Positions 5,756 to 30,573 of a stretch of 60,843 nt of DNA are shown piece after piece. This stretch comes from a bacterium (candidate division B38) B3_B38 (lineage in GTDB: Bacteria; Acidobacteriota; B3-B38; Guanabaribacteriales; B3-B38), in the NCBI GenBank assembly GCA_005223145.1, contig NJBL01000003.1:1-60843 (forward strand). Direction: 5' to 3'. The notes under the pieces are model-generated. The model had not been told where the DNA came from, ran no database searches, and saw only the letters and a program-made list of their open reading frames with translations. A program made the position numbers and the translations under genes. Within the stretch, counting starts at the first letter, position 1. The number at the start of each line of letters is the position of its first letter.

Positions 5756-6751
5756 ATGGTCTTTATGGTCTCTAAGGATGAGAGGAACAATCGGATTATA
5801 GAAGAAGCGAAGAAGGTTCTCTCTATTGAATACCAGGTAGTCCGTTCGCTGATTAGCAAAATAGACGAGAGTTTTGTGCGGGCCATAGATATACTTTACA
5901 ATTGTGAAGGAAGAATCATTGTCACCGGGATGGGCAAATCGGGACTTATAGGTAAGAAGATTTCTTCCACCTTCTCCAGCACTGGTACACCCACCTTCTT
6001 CCTGCATCCGGCTGAGGGGGGGCACGGAGATATCGGCGTTGTAACTGCCGACGATGTGGTGATTGCTATATCTCACAGCGGAAACACCGAAGAGGTGATG
6101 TCTCTGCTACCTTTCTTTAAGAGATTTGGCATTAAGGTCATCGCCATCACCGGAGATCCTGACTCCATCCTGGCGAAAAACAGCGATGTATGCCTCGATG
6201 TGGGGGTGGAAAAAGAGGCATGTCCTCTGGGGATAACCCCTACCGCGAGCACTACCGCCACGCTTGTTATGGGGGATGCTTTGGCTATGGTGTTGTTGAA
6301 GCTGAGAGGGTTCAAAAAGGAAGACTTCGCCCTGTTCCACCCGGCAGGGAGCCTGGGCAAGAGGCTCCTTCTGCGGGTGGGCGACCTGATGCATCGCAGT
6401 TCGGAGAACCCCGTTGTCAACTATAAAGTTTCTTTGAAGGAGGCTATCTACGAGATGACCTCCAAGGGGCTGGGGATGACATCGGTGGTCGACGATCAGA
6501 ATCGCCTGGTGGGTATTGTAACCGATGGAGACCTGCGCCGCATTCTGGAGAGGGAGAAGGACCCCCTCAATATCCCGGTGGGTAAGTTGATGATCCGAAA
6601 TCCTAAGGTAATCGGGGAGGATGTTCTGGCTGCCGAAGCTCTCAGGGTTATGGAGTATCACTCCATTACCTCTCTTATTGTCATCGACGATGAGAATCGC
6701 CCCTATGGGACCCTCCATTTGCACGATATACTGAAAGCGGGCATCGCCTGA
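5756..6751 (+). CDS. kdsD: Arabinose-5-phosphate isomerase (KpsF/GutQ family, SIS + CBS)
   Basis: Motifs VTGMGKSG, HPAEGGHGD, PTASTT and FHPAGSLG, plus a C-terminal CBS pair. Confidence 0.92.
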   Translation: MVFMVSKDERNNRIIEEAKKVLSIEYQVVRSLISKIDESFVRAIDILYNCEGRIIVTGMGKSGLIGKKISSTFSSTGTPTFFLHPAEGGHGDIGVVTADDVVIAISHSGNTEEVMSLLPFFKRFGIKVIAITGDPDSILAKNSDVCLDVGVEKEACPLGITPTASTTATLVMGDALAMVLLKLRGFKKEDFALFHPAGSLGKRLLLRVGDLMHRSSENPVVNYKVSLKEAIYEMTSKGLGMTSVVDDQNRLVGIVTDGDLRRILEREKDPLNIPVGKLMIRNPKVIGEDVLAAEALRVMEYHSITSLIVIDDENRPYGTLHLHDILKAGIA

Positions 6752-6965
6752 CGCCTATTCATTATTTAAGAGGTTCCTCATTTGCTTCGCTGACAGCGTT
6801 GAAATGCCACAAAGGGAAGCTTTCGGCTTTTGTCCCACAGGGTTGCTTTCTTTAGCTCAGGACAGAAGGGAACCCCCTTTATTTTGGTGTAAGATAAATT
6901 ACAGAAAACCGTATATTAAAATGTTAAAAGATAAGCACTTAAACATCTCGTCTCGCCTCCTGATT

Positions 6966-7012
6966 AGCCAATCGGGGAGGGTTTCGACCCACTCCGATTG
7001 GCTTCCTTTTTT
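6966..7012 (+). terminator. Intrinsic terminator-like hairpin
   Basis: AGCCAATCGG...GGGT-TTCG-ACCC...CCGATTGGCT followed by a T run. Confidence 0.7.
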
Positions 7013-7055
7013 ATGCCTCTTTTCCCGGGTTAAATAGGAGCAGGGGAGTGAGTAT

Positions 7056-7095
7056 AAATAAAAGGGCTGGCCAAGCCAACCCTCTTAGCCAGCCC
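7056..7095 (-). terminator. Intrinsic terminator (minus strand)
   Basis: An 8-bp GGGCTGGC/GCCAGCCC stem, extended by TAAG/CTTG, is followed by TTTTATTT on the minus strand. Confidence 0.75.
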
Positions 7096-7166
7096 AGGGT
7101 AAAGGGAGGTGATGTTAGGGTAATTAGAGGTATGGGGCTGGAAAAATCATTGCATTAACCTCATCA
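7056..7166 (-). ncRNA. Candidate sigma54-dependent small RNA with anti-Shine-Dalgarno motif
   Basis: It lies between a -24/-12 promoter match and a terminator. It contains ATCACCTCCCTTT (7101-7113 minus) directly before the terminator, and I found no plausible ORF. Confidence 0.5.
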
Positions 7167-7175
7167 AATATAAAT

Positions 7176-7192
7176 AAGCATAATTTATGCCA
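7176..7192 (-). promoter_or_regulatory. Sigma54 (-24/-12) promoter candidate
   Basis: TGGCATAAATTATGCTT, with GG (7191-7190) and GC (7179-7178) at canonical spacing. Confidence 0.6.
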
Positions 7193-7661
7193 TAAAGTCT
7201 CCCTTGAATCCGACTTCCTTAGCTTACTATTCATATGATGCTCTAAAAATTTAAGGTTACACGCTTAGCACATTCTCCCTTCTATTTATTTAGACGCTCT
7301 ATGAGGTAAAAGAGTTCCCTAAAATGTCCTCTTTTAGGGAAAGAAGTACTATAAAGATGCCACTATTCATTGTAAAAAATAAGCATTGTGGTAGGATATA
7401 AAGAGCGAAGAGGTTATTAATATCCATTCTCACCTTTTGCTTCAGGATGGGAGGAAGGAGAATAAAACTATAGCATAGAGAAGGGTTAAATTTTCCTTGA
7501 TTTTTTGCGTAATCTGGTATACATTATTTGAGATTTCTGGTGAATCAGATTCTTCTAATAACAAGAACTATGGAAGGAGGGTATTTATAGTATAATAAGG
7601 CTATCCAGGATAATGGTAACTTTATTGGTGAGTTTATCCGTATTAAGAGAGGAGAGGGACG

Positions 7662-9656
7662 ATGGCTGATAAGGAATTCAAACCATATGTTCCCGCAGTG
7701 ACTACTCTGAAAGAGTTCACCTTAAAGGCTATCCTGCTGGGAATTGTCTTATCAATAGTCTTGGGTGCAGCCAATGCTTATGTGGGCTTGAAAGCTGGTA
7801 TGACCGTAGCCGCCACCTTCCCCGCAGCGGTCATTGCCATGGCGGTACTCCGAATCTTTAAAGGGAGCATCCTGGAAGAAAACATCACCCGAACCACCGG
7901 TGCAGTGGGCGAAGCCCTGGTGGCAGGAGCTATTTTCACCATCCCCGCTTTCATAATGACAGGTGTCTGGGAGAAGCTGAGATACTGGGAGAGCACCGTA
8001 CTTATGCTTATCGGGGGAGTGCTGGGGGTTCTATTTGTTATCTTTCTCCGGCGGATACTCATTGAGGACACAGAGTTACCTTTTCCCGAGAGTGTTGCCT
8101 GTGGGGAGATAGTAAAAGCGGGACAGAAGGGACAAACCGGAGCGATGTATGTCTTTGGTACCATGGGAGTAGCCGCTCTGATCGAGCTATTCAAGAACAG
8201 TCGGGGGATTCAACTGTTCAGTGAGTCGGTTTCGGGATTTTTCAGGTTTAGCAGGTCTATCCTTCAGCTATTTACCGGGGAATTGAAACCGGTAGGGGGG
8301 GCAGAAGGGTACTCTGGAGGTGTTTTTCTCCGTTCGCCTGCCGCTTCGCCAGCTATGATAGGGGTAGGTTACATTATCGGACCGAGGTTAGCGGCAGTGG
8401 TCTTTTCTGGAGGGGTGTTTGGTTGGATATTGCTGGTGCCCTTACTGCTGTTTATCAATCCCGCCTTTGCCAATTTAGTAGGTGGCTATCTCCCCGATGG
8501 GGAAACCGTGAGTTGGCTCACTCTGAGCGAGTCGGTATGGTTCACCATGGTGAGGCCGTTAGCAGTGGGTGCTATGCTGGTGGGAGCCTTTTATACCCTG
8601 TTCAAAATGAGAAAGTCACTCACCAAGGGGGTTGGCCGCGCATTTCGGGATATAAAGAGGGTGAAGATGGGCGAAATCACCCCCAATCGGCTGGAAAAGG
8701 ACCTTTCCTTCAAGCCGGTGATCACCGCTATTTTGTTGCTGATGATACCGATATTTTTCATCTATTATTATTTCAGCCAGAGTATAGGGGGCGCCCTTCT
8801 TTCAACGGTGGTAATGACGGTGGCGGGTTTCCTTTTCGCCGCGGTGGCCGGATATTTAGTAGGCTTGATAGGGAGTTCCAATAACCCTATCTCCGGTTTG
8901 ACCCTGACCACTCTGATAATAGCCGCCCTATTAATGGTTCTCATTGGACTGAAAGGTCCTCTGGGGATCGCTGCTGTGCTGGGTGTAGCTGCCGTGGTTT
9001 GTTGTTCCTCAGGAGTAGCAGGCGATATAATGCAAGACCTCAAGGTGGGGCATATTTTAGGTGGAACTCCATGGAAGATGGAGATTGCCTGTATCATAGG
9101 GGTTATAGCCGCCAGCCTGGTAATGGTATTCCCCCTCAGTATCCTCCATCGAGGCACCCCTGGAGGGATAGGAGGACCCGGCCTCCCTGCGCCTCAGGCA
9201 GGTTTGATGTCGATGTTGTCCCAGGGGATTGTTGGCGGGACTATGGCTTGGGCGCTGGTGCTGGTGGGGATGGTCTTCTCCATTGGGTTGATCCTTATTA
9301 AATCCCCTTCCCCTATGCTGATCGCAGTGGGTATGTACCTTCCCCTGCAGACCACAGCCGCTATTTTCGTGGGAGGAGTGATCAAGTATATCGTGACCAG
9401 AACATATCAGCGCCGAAAGCTCAGCAAAGAGCTGGCTGGTAGAGGGGAGAATGTAGGGATTCTCCTCGCCTCAGGGCTTATTGCCGGGGAGGCGTTGACC
9501 GGAGTCTTGATAGCAGCCCTGGTAGTAGCGGATATCCACCTACCAGCTATAGGGCAGAATCCCTTGGGGGGGCTGGTGGTATTTGCCCTATTGGCAGCTA
9601 TTCTGATAGGCATACCTCTGAGGAGTTTAAAAGGTGGCACAGCGCAATCTTCTTGA
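7662..9656 (+). CDS. OPT-family oligopeptide transporter
   Basis: 664 aa polytopic membrane protein with motifs AANAYVGLKAGMTV, LPFPESVAC, SNNPISG, MQDLKVG, PAPQAGLM and LASGLIAGE. Confidence 0.93.
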   Translation: MADKEFKPYVPAVTTLKEFTLKAILLGIVLSIVLGAANAYVGLKAGMTVAATFPAAVIAMAVLRIFKGSILEENITRTTGAVGEALVAGAIFTIPAFIMTGVWEKLRYWESTVLMLIGGVLGVLFVIFLRRILIEDTELPFPESVACGEIVKAGQKGQTGAMYVFGTMGVAALIELFKNSRGIQLFSESVSGFFRFSRSILQLFTGELKPVGGAEGYSGGVFLRSPAASPAMIGVGYIIGPRLAAVVFSGGVFGWILLVPLLLFINPAFANLVGGYLPDGETVSWLTLSESVWFTMVRPLAVGAMLVGAFYTLFKMRKSLTKGVGRAFRDIKRVKMGEITPNRLEKDLSFKPVITAILLLMIPIFFIYYYFSQSIGGALLSTVVMTVAGFLFAAVAGYLVGLIGSSNNPISGLTLTTLIIAALLMVLIGLKGPLGIAAVLGVAAVVCCSSGVAGDIMQDLKVGHILGGTPWKMEIACIIGVIAASLVMVFPLSILHRGTPGGIGGPGLPAPQAGLMSMLSQGIVGGTMAWALVLVGMVFSIGLILIKSPSPMLIAVGMYLPLQTTAAIFVGGVIKYIVTRTYQRRKLSKELAGRGENVGILLASGLIAGEALTGVLIAALVVADIHLPAIGQNPLGGLVVFALLAAILIGIPLRSLKGGTAQSS

Positions 9657-9987
9657 CCTGATTCCTATGAGGAATCGTCAATGGGAAATGGGTGATGGTG
9701 ATAAGGTCGTCATCCTCAGACCGAAATTTGAAGACCATTGGCTGGGGAGATGGCTATTGCCCCGTATGAAAAATTCCCACTACAGGGTCAGATTGGATTC
9801 CTATGGCAGCTGGGTGTGGAGAAAATGCGATGGGCGCTGTACGGTTAAGGAGATTGCAGATGGCCTTGAAAGGCACTTCGGAGATTCCATAGAGCCAGTC
9901 TATCAGCGTCTTGCTCTGTTCCTTAACCAATTGTGGAGGGGTAGATTTATTGTCTATCAGGACAGCTCAGGCAGGCTGGTTAAGTGA
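9634..9987 (+). CDS. PqqD-family (RRE-like) protein
   Basis: Pattern LDSYGSWVWRKCDGRCTVKEIADGLERHF...LALFLNQL. It overlaps the OPT stop, suggesting coupling. Confidence 0.75.
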   Translation: MAQRNLLDLIPMRNRQWEMGDGDKVVILRPKFEDHWLGRWLLPRMKNSHYRVRLDSYGSWVWRKCDGRCTVKEIADGLERHFGDSIEPVYQRLALFLNQLWRGRFIVYQDSSGRLVK

Positions 9988-13027: not shown

Positions 13028-14074
13028 ATGGTTTCTGATCCTGATAAGCGCTCCAAAGCGATTGATATAGCTCTGCTCCAGATTGAGAAGCTGTTTGGCA
13101 AGGGGTCTATTATGTGGCTGGGCTCCAAGGGTGCGGTGATAGATGTTCCTGCTATCTCTACCGGCTCCATCTCATTAGATGCTGCTCTGGGGGTAGGAGG
13201 TATCCCTCGGGGGAGGGTCACCGAAATTTTTGGTCCCGAAGCCTCGGGAAAGACAACCCTGGTCCTCCATATTATTGCCGAGACGCAGAAAGCGGGGGGG
13301 GTAGCTGCTTTTATTGATGCGGAGCACGCGTTAGACGCCGGTTATGCTGGGAAGTTGGGGGTGGATATAGAAAATCTGCTGGTTTCACAGCCCGATAACG
13401 GGGAGCAGGCTCTGGAGATTGCTGAGGTGCTGGTCAGAAGTAGTGCCATTAGTGCGATTGTGATTGACTCGGTAGCTGCTTTAGTGCCTCGAGCGGAACT
13501 TGAAGGGGATATGGGGGATGCCCATATGGGACTGCAGGCGCGGTTAATGTCTCAAGCTCTGAGGAAGCTGGCGGGACTGGTATCCAAGTCGAACACTTCC
13601 CTGATATTCACCAACCAGATTCGAGAGAGAATCGGCATCTTCTTCGGCAATCCCGAGACAACTACCGGTGGGCGAGCCCTGAAATTTTATTCCTCAGTCC
13701 GTCTCGATATCCGCAGGATCGGCACCATAAAAGAGGGCGAGGAGATTATCGGCAGTCGGACCAGAGTCCGAGTGGTGAAGAACAAAGTAGCCGTCCCCTT
13801 CAAGGAGGCGGAGTTTGATATTCTTTACGGGGAGGGAATCTCTAAGGAGGGGGACCTTCTGGACCTTGCAGTTCAAAGACAGATAGTGACCAAAACAGGT
13901 GCTTGGTACTCCTTTGGCGAAGAGCGTATCGGTCAGGGAAGGGGAAATGTCCGTACATTTCTCAAGAATAATACTGAGATTCGGGAGACTCTGGAGAAAA
14001 AGATAAGAGAGGAGCTCAAACTGAAAGCCACGCAGGACAAGGAGACCGAGACGCAGAAAGAGAAAGGTCCTTAG
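13028..14074 (+). CDS. recA: Recombinase RecA
   Basis: Motifs [29 protein letters not shown] and [12 protein letters not shown]. Confidence 0.98.
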
Positions 14075-14148
14075 GGTACGGAAACTTTGGGTTAATTCGC
14101 CTCCTTTACTGCTGTTGGCAGTGGGGGATTATTTTTTGGTAAAAGGAG

Positions 14149-14832
14149 ATGGGAGTATTTGCTGTTCTTGGTCTGGGGGGATTTGGCTATCATGTTACCG
14201 CAACCCTCGCCACTGATGGACACGAAGTAATAGCTATCGATTCCAACAAAGAGAAGATTCAAAGCGTCAAGGAGATTGTTACCCAGGCCATCCTGACCGA
14301 TGCCACTGACAAGGAGACTTTAAAAGCTATCGGAATACAAGATGTAGATGCCGCCATTATCAGCCTGGGGGAGGAGGGGTTTGAGAGCGCGATGATGGTG
14401 ACTCTCTTCCTCAAAGAAGCCGGGGTTAAAAATATCATAGCAAAAGTGGCTAATGAAGACCAGGCTAAGATTCTGACCCAGATAGGGGCTACAGAGGTCG
14501 TCTTCCCGGAGAAGGATATGGCAATCCGACTGGCTAAAAGGCTGGGGAGCCCCAATGTTTACGACCAGATAGATATAGGGGAAGACCTTCAGATGGTGGA
14601 GCTGAGAGCTCCCTCCTCCTTTATAGAAAAGACAGTTCGGGATCTCGACCTGAGGCGCAAACACAATATACAGGTCATCGTTATCAAGCGAGAAAATCCC
14701 AAAGCCACCGGGGAGAGGAAATCCTGTTATAATGTTATTCTCCCTTTGCCCAATGAGATTATCCGGCCGGGAGATCATCTGACAGTAATGGGGAACCATA
14801 AAGCTCTGAACAAGATAAAGAAGCTAAAATAG
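14149..14832 (+). CDS. TrkA/KtrA potassium-uptake regulatory subunit
   Basis: GLGGFG nucleotide-binding motif, with TrkA-N and TrkA-C domains. Confidence 0.9.
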   Translation: MGVFAVLGLGGFGYHVTATLATDGHEVIAIDSNKEKIQSVKEIVTQAILTDATDKETLKAIGIQDVDAAIISLGEEGFESAMMVTLFLKEAGVKNIIAKVANEDQAKILTQIGATEVVFPEKDMAIRLAKRLGSPNVYDQIDIGEDLQMVELRAPSSFIEKTVRDLDLRRKHNIQVIVIKRENPKATGERKSCYNVILPLPNEIIRPGDHLTVMGNHKALNKIKKLK

Positions 14833-29107: not shown

Positions 29108-29428
29108 ATGGCTAATCGGAAGCTTATCAGACCAAATTTATCTGAATTTAAGGGCCGGATGTCTCATCAAGATGCGCGCAGGAAGCACGCTCCAATTGAC
29201 CAGACAAATGCAGAGAGCTTCTACTATATGAAGCAGATGAATAACAAAACCCCCATGGTGCTGGTGCTGAACGACGGTGAAGAGATTTACGGGATAATAG
29301 AGTGGTATGACAGGAACTGTATCAAGATAAACCGGCAGAATGCCCCGAATCTGCTAATTCCGAAACATAGCATCAAATATATGTATAAAGAAGAGGATGC
29401 TAAAGAGGAGGTTGAATCAGAGTCGTAG
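29108..29428 (+). CDS. Hfq/Sm-like RNA-binding protein
   Basis: Sm1-like [24 protein letters not shown] and Sm2-like [11 protein letters not shown], with an N-terminal extension. Confidence 0.7.
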
Positions 29429-29562: not shown

Positions 29563-30573
29563 TTGCCCGATAAACCCTTGATAGGTATTACCATAGGAGA
29601 TCCAGCGGGGATAGGCGGTGAGGTGACCTTGAAGTGTGTGGCTCATCCGTCAGTGAGGGAGGTCTGCCATCCTATTGTCGTGGGTGATGCCAGGTTGCTG
29701 AGGCGCCTATCTGATGAATATCGTCTTCCTTTTCCCTTCCGTATCATTGAACAGAAAGAGAGAGTCGACCGCAAGCTGACAGCTCCCCTGTTAATGGATC
29801 TGGATAACCTACCCCCTCAGATAGAGATGGGCTCGGTCAAGAAGGAGTATGGGCGAGCAGCAGGACAATATCTGGAGGTGGCTGTATCCCGGGCACTAAA
29901 GGGGGAAATAGATGCCCTGGTAACGGGACCCATCAATAAGATTGCCTTTAAGTTGGGAGGGTACGATTACTCAGGGCATACGGAGTATCTGGCAACACTG
30001 ACCCGGAGCAACTCTTATGCCATGATGTTTGTAGCCGAGAGCCTCAAGGTTGCTTTTCTTACCACCCATTTGAGCCTATCAGAGGCGGTCTGCCAGGTAA
30101 AAAAAGAGAAGATTATTCCCTTGGTTAGGCTAACTAATCAGGAGATGAAGCGCTTCGGTTTCTCCCAGCCCAGGATAGCCATTGCAGGTCTTAATCCCCA
30201 TGCTGGTGAAAATGGTATGTTCGGCAGGGAGGAGGTAGAGGAGATCGTTCCCGCCGTTGAGGAGTGCCAGAGAGAAGGGATAGACATCAAGGGTCCCTAC
30301 CCTGCTGACGCCCTCTTCTCCTCTAATAAAAATGGAGAACTTTTTGATATTATCATAGCCCTTTACCACGACCAGGGCTTGGTCCCCGTAAAGCTGTATG
30401 ATTTCCAAAAAGCGGTAAATATTACCTTAGGTCTCCCCATAATCCGAACCTCGGTGGGACATGGAACCGCTTTTGACATTGCAGGAAAGGGGATAGCCGA
30501 CCCCAGCAATATGATTGCGGCTATTAAGTTGGCTGTTGCTATGACCAGGAACTCCCTTTCCACCAATAGTTGA
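29563..30573 (+). CDS. pdxA: 4-hydroxythreonine-4-phosphate dehydrogenase
   Basis: Motifs GDPAGIG, GHTEYL, GLNPHAGE, YHDQG and HGTAFDIAG. Confidence 0.93.
   Translation: MPDKPLIGITIGDPAGIGGEVTLKCVAHPSVREVCHPIVVGDARLLRRLSDEYRLPFPFRIIEQKERVDRKLTAPLLMDLDNLPPQIEMGSVKKEYGRAAGQYLEVAVSRALKGEIDALVTGPINKIAFKLGGYDYSGHTEYLATLTRSNSYAMMFVAESLKVAFLTTHLSLSEAVCQVKKEKIIPLVRLTNQEMKRFGFSQPRIAIAGLNPHAGENGMFGREEVEEIVPAVEECQREGIDIKGPYPADALFSSNKNGELFDIIIALYHDQGLVPVKLYDFQKAVNITLGLPIIRTSVGHGTAFDIAGKGIADPSNMIAAIKLAVAMTRNSLSTNS

What the first reader, a model, noticed from the sequence alone, without database searches (positions are those of the whole stretch)
7056..7192. Candidate sigma54-dependent sRNA carrying a near-perfect anti-Shine-Dalgarno
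Seen (minus strand): TGGCATAAATTATGCTT with exact -24/-12 spacing, a predicted start near 7166, an A/U- and C-rich ~70-nt body, then AUCACCUCCCUUU (7113-7101) and a strong terminator (7095-7056). The plus-strand reading (RBS + ATG TTA GGG TAA) is only three codons, so it is not a real gene. Established: the 16S rRNA 3' end is typically GAUCACCUCCUU, and sRNAs with anti-SD seeds repress translation by pairing to RBSs, often with Hfq. Inference: this is a ~110-nt trans-acting sRNA that could target many GGAGGUG RBSs. An Hfq-like gene lies at 29108 in this window.
Basis: partly seen in the sequence, partly recalled or inferred. Interest (0 to 1): 0.65.

Follow-up and report, generated by a model that had tools for sequence, protein, structure and literature searches.

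The report
Probable sigma54-driven anti-Shine-Dalgarno small RNA
The gap between two genes of an uncultured sediment bacterium (Aminicenantes) most likely holds a new small regulatory RNA gene with a sigma-54 promoter, a ribosome-like C-rich stretch and a terminator; it is an ordinary kind of regulator but uncatalogued, and the strand of the RNA seen in the field is not yet proven.

Summary
On the minus strand there is TGGCATAAATTATGCT (7192-7177) with exact -24/-12 spacing. It is followed by AUCACCUCCCUUU (7113-7101), whose first nine bases equal this genome's own 16S 3' tail, and then a 12-bp terminator with a U-run (7095-7054).

The genome has rpoN, eight sigma54 activators and an Hfq-related gene. 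Among relatives the 16-nt promoter is an island of conservation, and its only change, TGGCAT to TGGCAC, fits the consensus. The seed AACAUCACCUCCCU never varies. The terminator helix is fully paired only on the minus strand. No reading frame is conserved, and there is no Rfam match, no paralog and no homolog outside one genus-level lineage.

Two metatranscriptomes hold a discrete RNA over 7001/7004-7161, ending 5 nt from the predicted start, with nothing over 7162-7635.

Three caveats remain:
- The contigs carry no strand, and library artefacts lean towards plus sense.
- The RNA runs about 55 nt past the terminator.
- One diverged relative (L013) has lost the -24 element.

The best target lead is a 19-nt match in the 5' UTR of a very highly expressed outer-membrane barrel gene on contig C73.

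Verdict: a probable new member of a known kind. Confidence about 0.55, interest moderate.

The parts
7177..7192 (-). Sigma54-type promoter TGGCATAAATTATGCT, with GG at -25/-24 and GC at -13/-12.
   Evidence: Pattern count against shuffles. Identical in 3 congeners. In diverged populations 1 of 16 positions varies (7187, T>C, giving TGGCAC), against 10 of 16 just upstream and 6-7 of 16 just downstream. Lost by deletion in L013.
7161..7166 (-). Predicted transcription start (7166, by the -12 rule) and the observed right-hand end of the RNA contigs (7161, primer junction).
   Evidence: At two other sigma54 motifs of this genome, RNA contigs start 18 and 40 nt downstream of the predicted start.
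7127..7162 (-). Weak 5' hairpin GAGGU(7162-7158)/ACCUC(7131-7127).
   Evidence: MFE fold. One compensatory change in G002 (AAGGU/ACCUU), but broken in G001. Support is weak.
7096..7142 (-). C/U/A-rich, G-poor body with a single G. It includes CCAGCCC (7141-7135), which can pair with GGGCUGG (7095-7089) as an alternative to the terminator.
   Evidence: Sequence. RNAalifold consensus. Unpaired probabilities mostly 0.7-1.0 for 7126-7110.
7103..7116 (-). Invariant seed AACAUCACCUCCCU.
   Evidence: The 16S tail. No variant in any congener, in L013 or in the metagenome populations.
7054..7095 (-). Intrinsic terminator: stem GGGCUGGCUAAG/CUUGGCCAGCCC, loop AGGGUUGG, then UUUUAUUUAU.
   Evidence: The helix is fully paired in every lineage only on the minus strand, through G.U pairs at 7095/7064 and 7087/7072. 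Fold energies minus against plus: -24.0/-19.2, -21.6/-15.4, -21.9/-20.0 kcal/mol.
7001..7053 (-). Less conserved stretch that the RNA contigs still cover. It is read-through of the terminator, or part of a plus-sense RNA.
   Evidence: RNA contigs span 7001-7068 and 7039-7161 (X21) and 7004-7136 (X22), with snap-back joints at 7001 and 7004. Many variable sites.
7315..7341 (.). Perfect 10-bp palindrome TTCCCTAAAA-N7-TTTTAGGGAA, 149-175 bp upstream of the predicted start. Candidate activator binding site.
   Evidence: Unique in the genome. Conserved in 3 congeners and degraded in L013, which also lost the -24 element. Its function is inferred.

Best explanation
This is an orphan small-RNA gene on the minus strand.

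Proposed mechanism:
1. Sigma54-RNA polymerase binds TGGCAT-N5-ATGCT (7192-7177). An unlinked enhancer-binding activator turns it on, possibly through the palindrome at -149 to -175.
2. Transcription starts near 7166.
3. Most transcripts should end at the terminator near 7056, giving an RNA of about 110 nt. Some read through to about 7001.
4. The G-poor middle part displays AACAUCACCUCCCU, a close copy of the 16S rRNA 3' tail with one extra C.
5. This stretch pairs with purine-rich Shine-Dalgarno-like sequences in mRNAs, probably with help from the Hfq-related protein.

The best candidate targets are the extended SD-like elements (AAAGGGGGGUGAUGUU) near the 5' ends of very abundant outer-membrane barrel mRNAs, and the leader of an exbB-like operon. 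Pairing there would displace 30S subunits and change translation or mRNA stability.

Shown here: the sequence signals, their selective conservation, the absence of coding potential, the presence of rpoN, activators and Hfq, and the existence of a discrete RNA over the unit.

Inferred: the strand of that RNA, sigma54 dependence, the activator site, action in trans, and the targets.
For: - The motif is enriched over chance. rpoN and 8 activators are present.
- Motifs of the same form precede genes. At C1 and C75, RNA begins 18 and 40 nt after the predicted start, with no RNA upstream.
- The promoter is an island of conservation, and its one change is consensus-compatible.
- The seed and terminator are invariant in 3 congeners and almost so in L013. 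The flanks differ by up to 16%.
- The terminator helix keeps all 12 pairs only on the minus strand, and the U-run is kept.
- The 8-codon and 3-codon frames are not conserved.
- RNA contigs in two metatranscriptomes cover 7001/7004-7161 and nothing in 7162-7635. The right end is 5 nt from the predicted start. No RNA links the unit to kpsF: coverage is 0 over 6923-6969.
- An Hfq_1-family protein is encoded and its gene is transcribed.
- There is a 19-bp complement with one G.U at C73 7873-7891, in the 5' UTR of an outer-membrane barrel gene with RNA depth 1237 and 857. The site is conserved in both congeners.
Against: - The contigs have no direction. In this library, snap-back chimeras mark RNA 5' ends at three places where the sense is known: OPT at 7636, position 29349, and C75. 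At this locus they sit at 7001/7004, the left end, and the primer sits at the right end. That is the pattern expected of a plus-sense RNA.
- The RNA runs about 55 nt beyond the terminator at similar depth, and it ends where no minus-strand signal explains an end.
- L013 lacks the -24 element.
- The -12 element is ATGC rather than TTGC.
- There is no covariation, because the sequences are too similar.
- There is no paralog, and no homolog in 400 genomes of the phylum.
- The target match is only modestly significant: 32 of 1000 shuffles reach a 19-bp helix when G.U pairs are allowed. Any anti-SD sequence pairs with SD-like elements by construction.
Confidence: 0.55

Rival explanations
1. The RNA seen in the field is plus-sense: a roughly 160-nt transcript or processing product running from about 7001-7004 to about 7165. 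It would carry the SD-like element GUAAAGGGAGGUGAUGUUAGGG, the same motif family as in the outer-membrane protein leaders. In that case the minus-strand sRNA gene is silent in these samples, or the plus-strand motif is the functional one.
For: - The snap-back joint is at the left end in both runs and the primer is at the right end.
- At three places of known sense, snap-backs lie at the RNA 5' end. Primers lie on the 3' side in 6 of 8 cases.
- The motif AAAGGG(A/G)GGUGAUGUU is on the mRNA strand in the C73 leader, three times.
Against: - There is no plus-strand promoter upstream of 7001, and no terminator near 7165.
- There is no RNA over 6912-7000, so it is not read-through from kpsF.
- The hairpin has one or two mismatches on the plus strand in most lineages.
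- The conserved T-run and the sigma54 island would have no role.
- The plus-strand mini-ORF is not conserved.
Confidence: 0.25
2. A real minus-strand small RNA exists, but it is not sigma54-dependent and not a general anti-SD repressor. It would be driven by another promoter and act as an antisense or interference element against the convergent kpsF 3' region, or as a sponge or decoy.
For: - L013 keeps the RNA body without the -24 element.
- Read-through to 7001 abuts the convergent plus-strand terminator at 6965-7016.
- TTTATG-18-TATATT (7196-7167) is a weak sigma70-like alternative, consistent with the contig end at 7161.
Against: - The sigma70-like -10 is not conserved: positions 7167, 7173-7174 and 7176 vary, whereas the sigma54 element does not.
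- The upstream palindrome and the -24 element are lost together in L013, as expected if they work together.
Confidence: 0.12
3. There is no dedicated function. A chance sigma54-like motif lies next to the antisense of a decayed ribosome-binding site and a terminator that merely insulates the convergent genes.
For: - About half of the 16 strict sigma54 motifs in the genome look like chance.
- ATCACCTCC occurs 79 times.
- The lineage is so narrow that conservation has limited power.
Against: - The promoter, seed and terminator are islands of invariance inside flanks that vary by 10-16%.
- The seed survives even in L013, where the flanks no longer align.
- RNA is present.
Confidence: 0.08

Closest known systems
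Qrr1-5 of Vibrio (sigma54 plus LuxO, Hfq-dependent); more broadly the sigma54-driven sRNAs GlmY/GlmZ (PMC4152352) and the RpoN-dependent sRNA of Campylobacter jejuni (PMC11187230)
   Same: An orphan gene of about 100 nt with a -24/-12 promoter and an intrinsic terminator, in a genome with rpoN, activators and an Hfq-like protein. A conserved single-stranded seed.
   Different: No sequence or structure match: no Rfam family reaches its threshold, and even at E up to 10 only four chance-level hits appear. No activator gene lies next to it. It is restricted to one genus-level lineage of Aminicenantes. Sigma54 dependence is untested, and the -24 element is absent in L013.
RsaE/RoxS and other C-rich-seed sRNAs of Firmicutes (from general knowledge)
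   Same: An unpaired, G-poor, C-rich stretch that is complementary to Shine-Dalgarno sequences.
   Different: There is one long 16S-tail-like tract rather than repeated UCCC loops. The promoter type and the phylum differ. There is no Rfam match.
sRNAs that control outer-membrane proteins: MicA/RybB and OmrA/OmrB of enterobacteria (general knowledge), and NcS25 of Burkholderia, whose SD-complementary seed represses a porin linked to sigma54/NtrC (PMC10117139)
   Same: The best predicted target is the 5' UTR of a very abundant outer-membrane barrel mRNA. Related genes carry sigma54 promoters.
   Different: The predicted site is an upstream SD-like element about 150 nt before the start codon, not the ribosome-binding site itself. 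Nothing has been tested experimentally.
STAB-SD 5' stabilisers of Bacillus mRNAs such as cryIIIA (general knowledge). This comparison concerns the target motif, not the sRNA
   Same: SD-like sequences with long complementarity to the 16S tail lie near the 5' ends of highly expressed mRNAs, far from any start codon.
   Different: A stabilising role is only inferred here. The organism is a diderm of a different phylum.

Membership tests
Sigma54-dependent promoter | GG at -24 and GC at -12 with exact spacing (TGGCAC-N5-TTGCW). | tested here: met
   TGGCAT-AAATT-ATGCT at 7192-7177. The -15 position is A instead of T.
Sigma54-dependent promoter | rpoN and enhancer-binding activators are encoded in the genome. 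| tested here: met
   Sigma54_DBD, 208.6 bits, on C74. Eight full Sigma54_activat proteins. None lies in the window.
Sigma54-dependent promoter | The promoter element is conserved in relatives. | tested here: inconclusive
   It is invariant, or consensus-compatible, in 3 congeners and in several metagenome populations. It is deleted in the L013 lineage.
Sigma54-dependent promoter | An upstream activator site, and activator- and RpoN-dependent transcription from the predicted start. | not testable with these tools
   A candidate palindrome lies at 7315-7341. The RNA contig ends 5 nt from the predicted start, but without strand information.
Intrinsic (Rho-independent) terminator | A G+C-rich hairpin directly followed by a U-run on the transcribed strand. 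| tested here: met
   12 bp, 8 of them G-C, then UUUUAUUUAU. The helix is better on the minus strand in all lineages. However, the RNA contigs continue about 55 nt past it.
Trans-acting base-pairing sRNA | Non-coding: no conserved reading frame. | tested here: met
   The 8-codon frame loses its ATG in G002. The frames downstream are 15, 15, 7 and 2 codons long.
Trans-acting base-pairing sRNA | Expressed as a discrete RNA from the proposed strand. | tested here: inconclusive
   A discrete RNA covers 7001/7004-7161 in two metatranscriptomes. The strand cannot be read, and the artefact pattern leans towards plus.
Trans-acting base-pairing sRNA | A conserved, accessible seed with a conserved complement in a target mRNA. 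| tested here: inconclusive
   The seed is invariant and mostly unpaired. There is a 19-bp complement at C73 7873-7891, kept in G001 and one G shorter in G002. Shuffle test p is about 0.03. No compensatory change was seen.
Described RNA families (Rfam 15, including Qrr, GlmY/GlmZ, RsaE) | A match to the family covariance model at its gathering score. | tested here: not met
   No hit at gathering threshold in the window. The best sub-threshold hit is sbrA at 19.9 bits against a gathering score of 45, E 0.31.

The most novel reading that the evidence does not exclude
The RNA is a sigma54-controlled mimic of the 16S rRNA 3' tail. Its extra C and its AACAU extension make it pair better than the ribosome itself with the extended SD-like elements (AAAGGGGGGUGAUGUU) that sit near the 5' ends of the cell's most abundant outer-membrane barrel mRNAs and in the exbB-like leader. 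By competing with 30S subunits for these 5' 'stabiliser' sites, it would switch a whole TonB-type uptake regulon up or down. That would be a regulatory logic not described for any sRNA, in a phylum with almost no characterised sRNAs.
Probability: 0.15. Interest if true: 0.7.

Novelty: new member of a known kind. Interest (0 to 1): 0.42.

Why it matters
A 2022 review counted only four annotated sRNAs for Acidobacteria (PMC9029176), and no sRNA is known from the uncultured Aminicenantes that are common in anoxic sediments. If real, this would be a first handle on post-transcriptional control in that lineage.

It would also tie the sigma54 regulon to the cell's most highly expressed outer-membrane uptake proteins, several of which have sigma54 promoters themselves. 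The recurring SD-like leader motif found on the way may be of wider interest than the sRNA. Signals of sigma54 promoters and anti-SD seeds are simple enough to predict similar genes in other uncultured bacteria.

Tried and rejected
- **Rfam.** Searches at gathering and at permissive thresholds gave nothing.
- **Paralogs in the own genome.** BLAST and motif grammar (GAGGTTAA...CAYCACCYCC) found none. Only short islands of similarity turned up in the C73 intergenic region.
- **Homologs elsewhere.** A covariance model built from the 3 congeners found nothing credible in 400 genomes of the phylum or in the 5-genome class. A scan of all species genomes with the core pattern returned the two congeners plus one chance hit inside a Rhodanobacter coding region.
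- **Synteny in metagenomes.** Of 80 KpsF loci, only L013 (89% KpsF identity) carries the RNA. The locus at 65% identity (L015), which holds about 2.5 kb downstream of kpsF, does not. L014 (75% identity) holds only about 260 nt downstream of kpsF, too little to reach the RNA.
- **Coding potential.** The 8-codon frame at 7140 and the 15-codon frame with a strong SD at 6946-6899 were both rejected, because frame and length are not conserved.
- **A sigma70 promoter instead.** TTTATG-18-TATATT was rejected because its -10 varies among relatives.
- **Strand from library artefacts.** The primer (...ACTTTGTGTTTGA) occurs at both ends of fragments, so it is not decisive. Snap-backs lean towards plus.
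- **A sigma54-like motif on C73 (8219-8204) as promoter of the target gene.** There is no RNA between it and about 7909, so it is not the active promoter in these samples.
- **Covariation.** None can be had, because the sequences are too similar.

Full report
**1. What is there**

The finding lies in a 910-bp gap between two plus-strand genes. One is a KpsF-type sugar isomerase (5756-6751; SIS plus CBS domains). The other is an OPT-family transporter (7662-9656).

On the minus strand the sequence reads as follows:
- TGGCATAAATTATGCT at 7192-7177;
- an AT-rich start region;
- a body that has a single G between 7142 and 7096;
- AACAUCACCUCCCUUU at 7116-7101;
- a 12-bp hairpin GGGCUGGCUAAG/CUUGGCCAGCCC at 7095-7064;
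- UUUUAUUUAU.

With C7178 at -12, the start falls at 7166. The organism's own 16S rRNA ends in GGAUCACCUCCUUUCU. Nine bases (AUCACCUCC) are therefore identical, and the RNA then has CCC where the rRNA has CC.

**2. Is it more than chance?**

The pattern TGGCAYN5WTGCW occurs twice in the window against 0.23 expected, and 16 times in the genome. Seven to nine of those 16 lie just upstream of genes. They include three paralogous ORFs of about 900 aa whose N-termini resemble the C73 outer-membrane barrel protein.

The genome encodes rpoN and eight full-length sigma54 activators. Some of the activators lie next to such motifs.

At two of these other motifs, the same metatranscriptomes show RNA contigs beginning downstream of the predicted start. 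At C1 the contig begins 18 nt downstream and nothing covers the 355 nt upstream of it. At C75 the RNA ends 40 nt downstream of the predicted start and nothing lies beyond it. Promoters of this form are therefore in use in this organism, in these samples.

The 9-mer ATCACCTCC alone is common (79 copies). It is the context that matters, not the motif.

**3. Conservation**

The lineage is thinly sampled. Its class holds five species genomes. One congener is titled Candidatus Aminicenantes.

BLAST and a covariance model find the element only in the two congeners and in one metagenome contig, L013, whose KpsF is 89% identical.

In the three species the promoter is identical. The 53 nt from ACAUCACC to GCCAGCC are also identical, while the flanks differ.

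Contigs from four other sediment metagenomes carry several diverged strains. Their flanks differ by up to 16%. In these strains:
- only one of the 16 promoter positions varies, changing TGGCAT to the consensus TGGCAC;
- 10 of the 16 positions just upstream vary;
- 6-7 of the 16 positions just downstream vary;
- the seed 7116-7103 never varies.

The terminator stem varies at only two of its pairs. Both changes keep pairing on the minus strand through G.U, and they create or leave C.A mismatches on the plus strand. Accordingly the hairpin is 2-6 kcal/mol better on the minus strand in all three sequence types.

No reading frame is conserved. This pattern is what a promoter, seed and terminator unit on the minus strand predicts.

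L013 is the exception. A deletion of about 40 nt removes the -24 element, and the upstream palindrome is degraded. Yet CCAGCCCCA, AACAUCACCUCCCU and the hairpin are all kept. Either that lineage uses another promoter, or sigma54 control is not essential to the RNA.

**4. Expression**

Two metatranscriptomes from the study that also holds near-identical DNA contain contigs over the unit. One covers 7001-7068 and 7039-7161 (depths 31 and 27). The other covers 7004-7136 (depth 16). DNA runs cover the whole gap.

Neither RNA run has anything over 7162-7635. One of them also has nothing over 6923-6969. Coverage elsewhere in the window is patchy and follows the genes, so DNA carry-over is low.

The right-hand end, at 7161 with a library primer attached, is 5 nt from the predicted start.

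Two points limit this evidence.

First, the RNA is about 160 nt. It runs through the terminator to 7001-7004, where no minus-strand signal explains an end.

Second, the contigs carry no direction. The library has the same primer at both fragment ends, and it often shows snap-back chimeras. At three places where the RNA sense is known, the snap-back sits at the RNA 5' end: the OPT mRNA at 7636, position 29349, and the C75 mRNA. At this locus the snap-backs of both runs sit at 7001 and 7004.

Taken alone, that pattern favours a plus-sense RNA. I put the likelihood ratio at roughly 10.

Against it:
- a plus-sense RNA would have neither promoter nor terminator;
- it is not read-through from kpsF, because there is no RNA over 6912-7000;
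- it would leave the conserved sigma54 island, the U-run and the strand-specific G.U pairs unexplained.

I therefore count the RNA data as proof that the unit is expressed as a discrete species, and not as proof of strand.

**5. How it most likely works**

The fold leaves UAAUUACCCUAACAUCA mostly unpaired. The CC/CCC part is partly engaged in weak alternative pairings. CCAGCCC (7141-7135) can pair with the 5' arm of the terminator.

A genome-wide search for complements of the seed found one outstanding site, GUAAAGGGGGGUGAUGUUA at C73 7873-7891. It forms 19 bp with one G.U pair. My own estimate of the chance expectation for such a site is about 0.007. With free G.U pairing, 32 of 1000 shuffles reach 19 bp.

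The site lies about 150 nt upstream of a 959-aa CarboxypepD_reg / outer-membrane beta-barrel gene. It is within about 20 nt of the 5' end of that gene's RNA contig. This gene is one of the most highly expressed loci I looked at, with depths of 1237 and 857.

The site and a second copy are conserved in both congeners.

Similar SD-like elements (AAAGGRGGUGA) sit 37-148 nt upstream of six large ORFs of 614-985 aa. Only the C73 protein was checked against Pfam; the C1 and C75 proteins have similar N-termini. Two of these elements lie directly behind sigma54 promoters.

A further pair of overlapping 13-nt and 12-nt complements covers the ribosome-binding site of a 35-codon leader ORF in front of an exbB/tolQ-like gene.

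I propose that the RNA pairs with these purine-rich elements in place of the 30S subunit. The extra C and the AACAU extension fit the C73 site better than the 16S tail does. This is inference. Any anti-SD sequence will match SD-like motifs, and no compensatory change was observed.

**6. Comparison and novelty**

The architecture is that of the known sigma54-driven sRNAs (Qrr, GlmY/GlmZ, the Campylobacter RpoN-dependent sRNA). The seed type is that of C-rich anti-SD sRNAs (RsaE/RoxS). The predicted target class recalls sRNAs that control outer-membrane proteins, such as NcS25 (PMC10117139).

It matches none of these by sequence or structure. This scan has noted similar sigma54 plus anti-SD candidates in other Acidobacteriota, but none is related by sequence.

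It is thus a new member of a known kind.

**7. Verdict**

A real, selectively conserved, expressed non-coding unit. Most likely (about 0.55) it is a minus-strand, sigma54-dependent sRNA with an anti-SD seed. The main rival (about 0.25) is that the RNA observed is plus-sense. Interest is moderate.

Noticed in passing
window 6941-7016 (+): A second conserved block. AAACATCTCGTCTCGCCTCCTGAT (6941-6964) is invariant in all four lineages. It is followed by a hairpin (6965-7003) with compensatory changes, then TCCTTTTTT. This looks like the 3' end of a convergent plus-strand sRNA, or a 3'-UTR element carrying its own CCUCC seed. No RNA was seen there in the two runs. A 16-nt match, AGGAGGCGAGACGAGA, occurs on contig C86 at 9906-9921.
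   Followed up: partly
genome contigs C1 6862-6873, C28 11981-11992, C73 7877-7889, C75 20047-20058, C79 2-13 and 67-78, C90 6922-6933 and 9098-9110: A recurring SD-like element, AAAGG(A/G)GG(G)UGA(U/A), lies 37-148 nt upstream of six large ORFs of 614-985 aa (C1, C28, C73, C75, C79, C90 6922). It is close to the 5' ends of their RNA contigs. The C73 protein is a CarboxypepD_reg / outer-membrane barrel by Pfam; the others were not checked. The copy at C90 9098-9110 follows a sigma54 motif, with no large ORF behind it. Possibly a 5' stabiliser or ribosome standby site.
   Followed up: partly
genome contigs C1 6811-6826, C53 14074-14089, C75 20090-20105: Strict sigma54 motifs precede three paralogous ORFs of about 900 aa whose N-termini resemble the C73 outer-membrane barrel protein. 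At C1 and C75, RNA contigs start 18 and 40 nt downstream of the predicted start. These ORFs seem to form a large part of the sigma54 regulon.
   Followed up: partly
genome contig C25 74482-74541 (-): A consensus TTGACA-17-TATAAT promoter, then a leader with tandem GGUGAUGUUAGGG and AGGGAGGUGAUG sites, then a 35-codon ORF in front of an exbB/tolQ-like gene. Both sites are complementary to the sRNA seed.
   Followed up: partly
window 7315-7341: A perfect palindrome, TTCCCTAAAA-N7-TTTTAGGGAA, unique in the genome. It lies 149-175 bp upstream of the predicted sRNA start, in a roughly 360-bp stretch between the two divergent promoters that is conserved but not transcribed.
   Followed up: partly
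window 30007-30022 (-): The second strict sigma54 motif of the window, TGGCATAAGAGTTGCT. It lies inside, and antisense to, the 336-aa ORF at 29563-30573. It is probably chance or an intragenic binding site.
   Followed up: no
window 13341-14674: In both metatranscriptomes this is by far the most highly expressed stretch of the first 40 kb of the window (the part laid), with contig depths around 1330 and 760. The gene was not identified here.
   Followed up: no
runs X21 and X22 (study P2): These libraries carry a constant primer, ...ACTTTGTGTTTGA, at both fragment ends, and they show frequent snap-back chimeras at RNA 5' ends. This helps in reading ends from these data, but the contigs give no strand.
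   Followed up: yes
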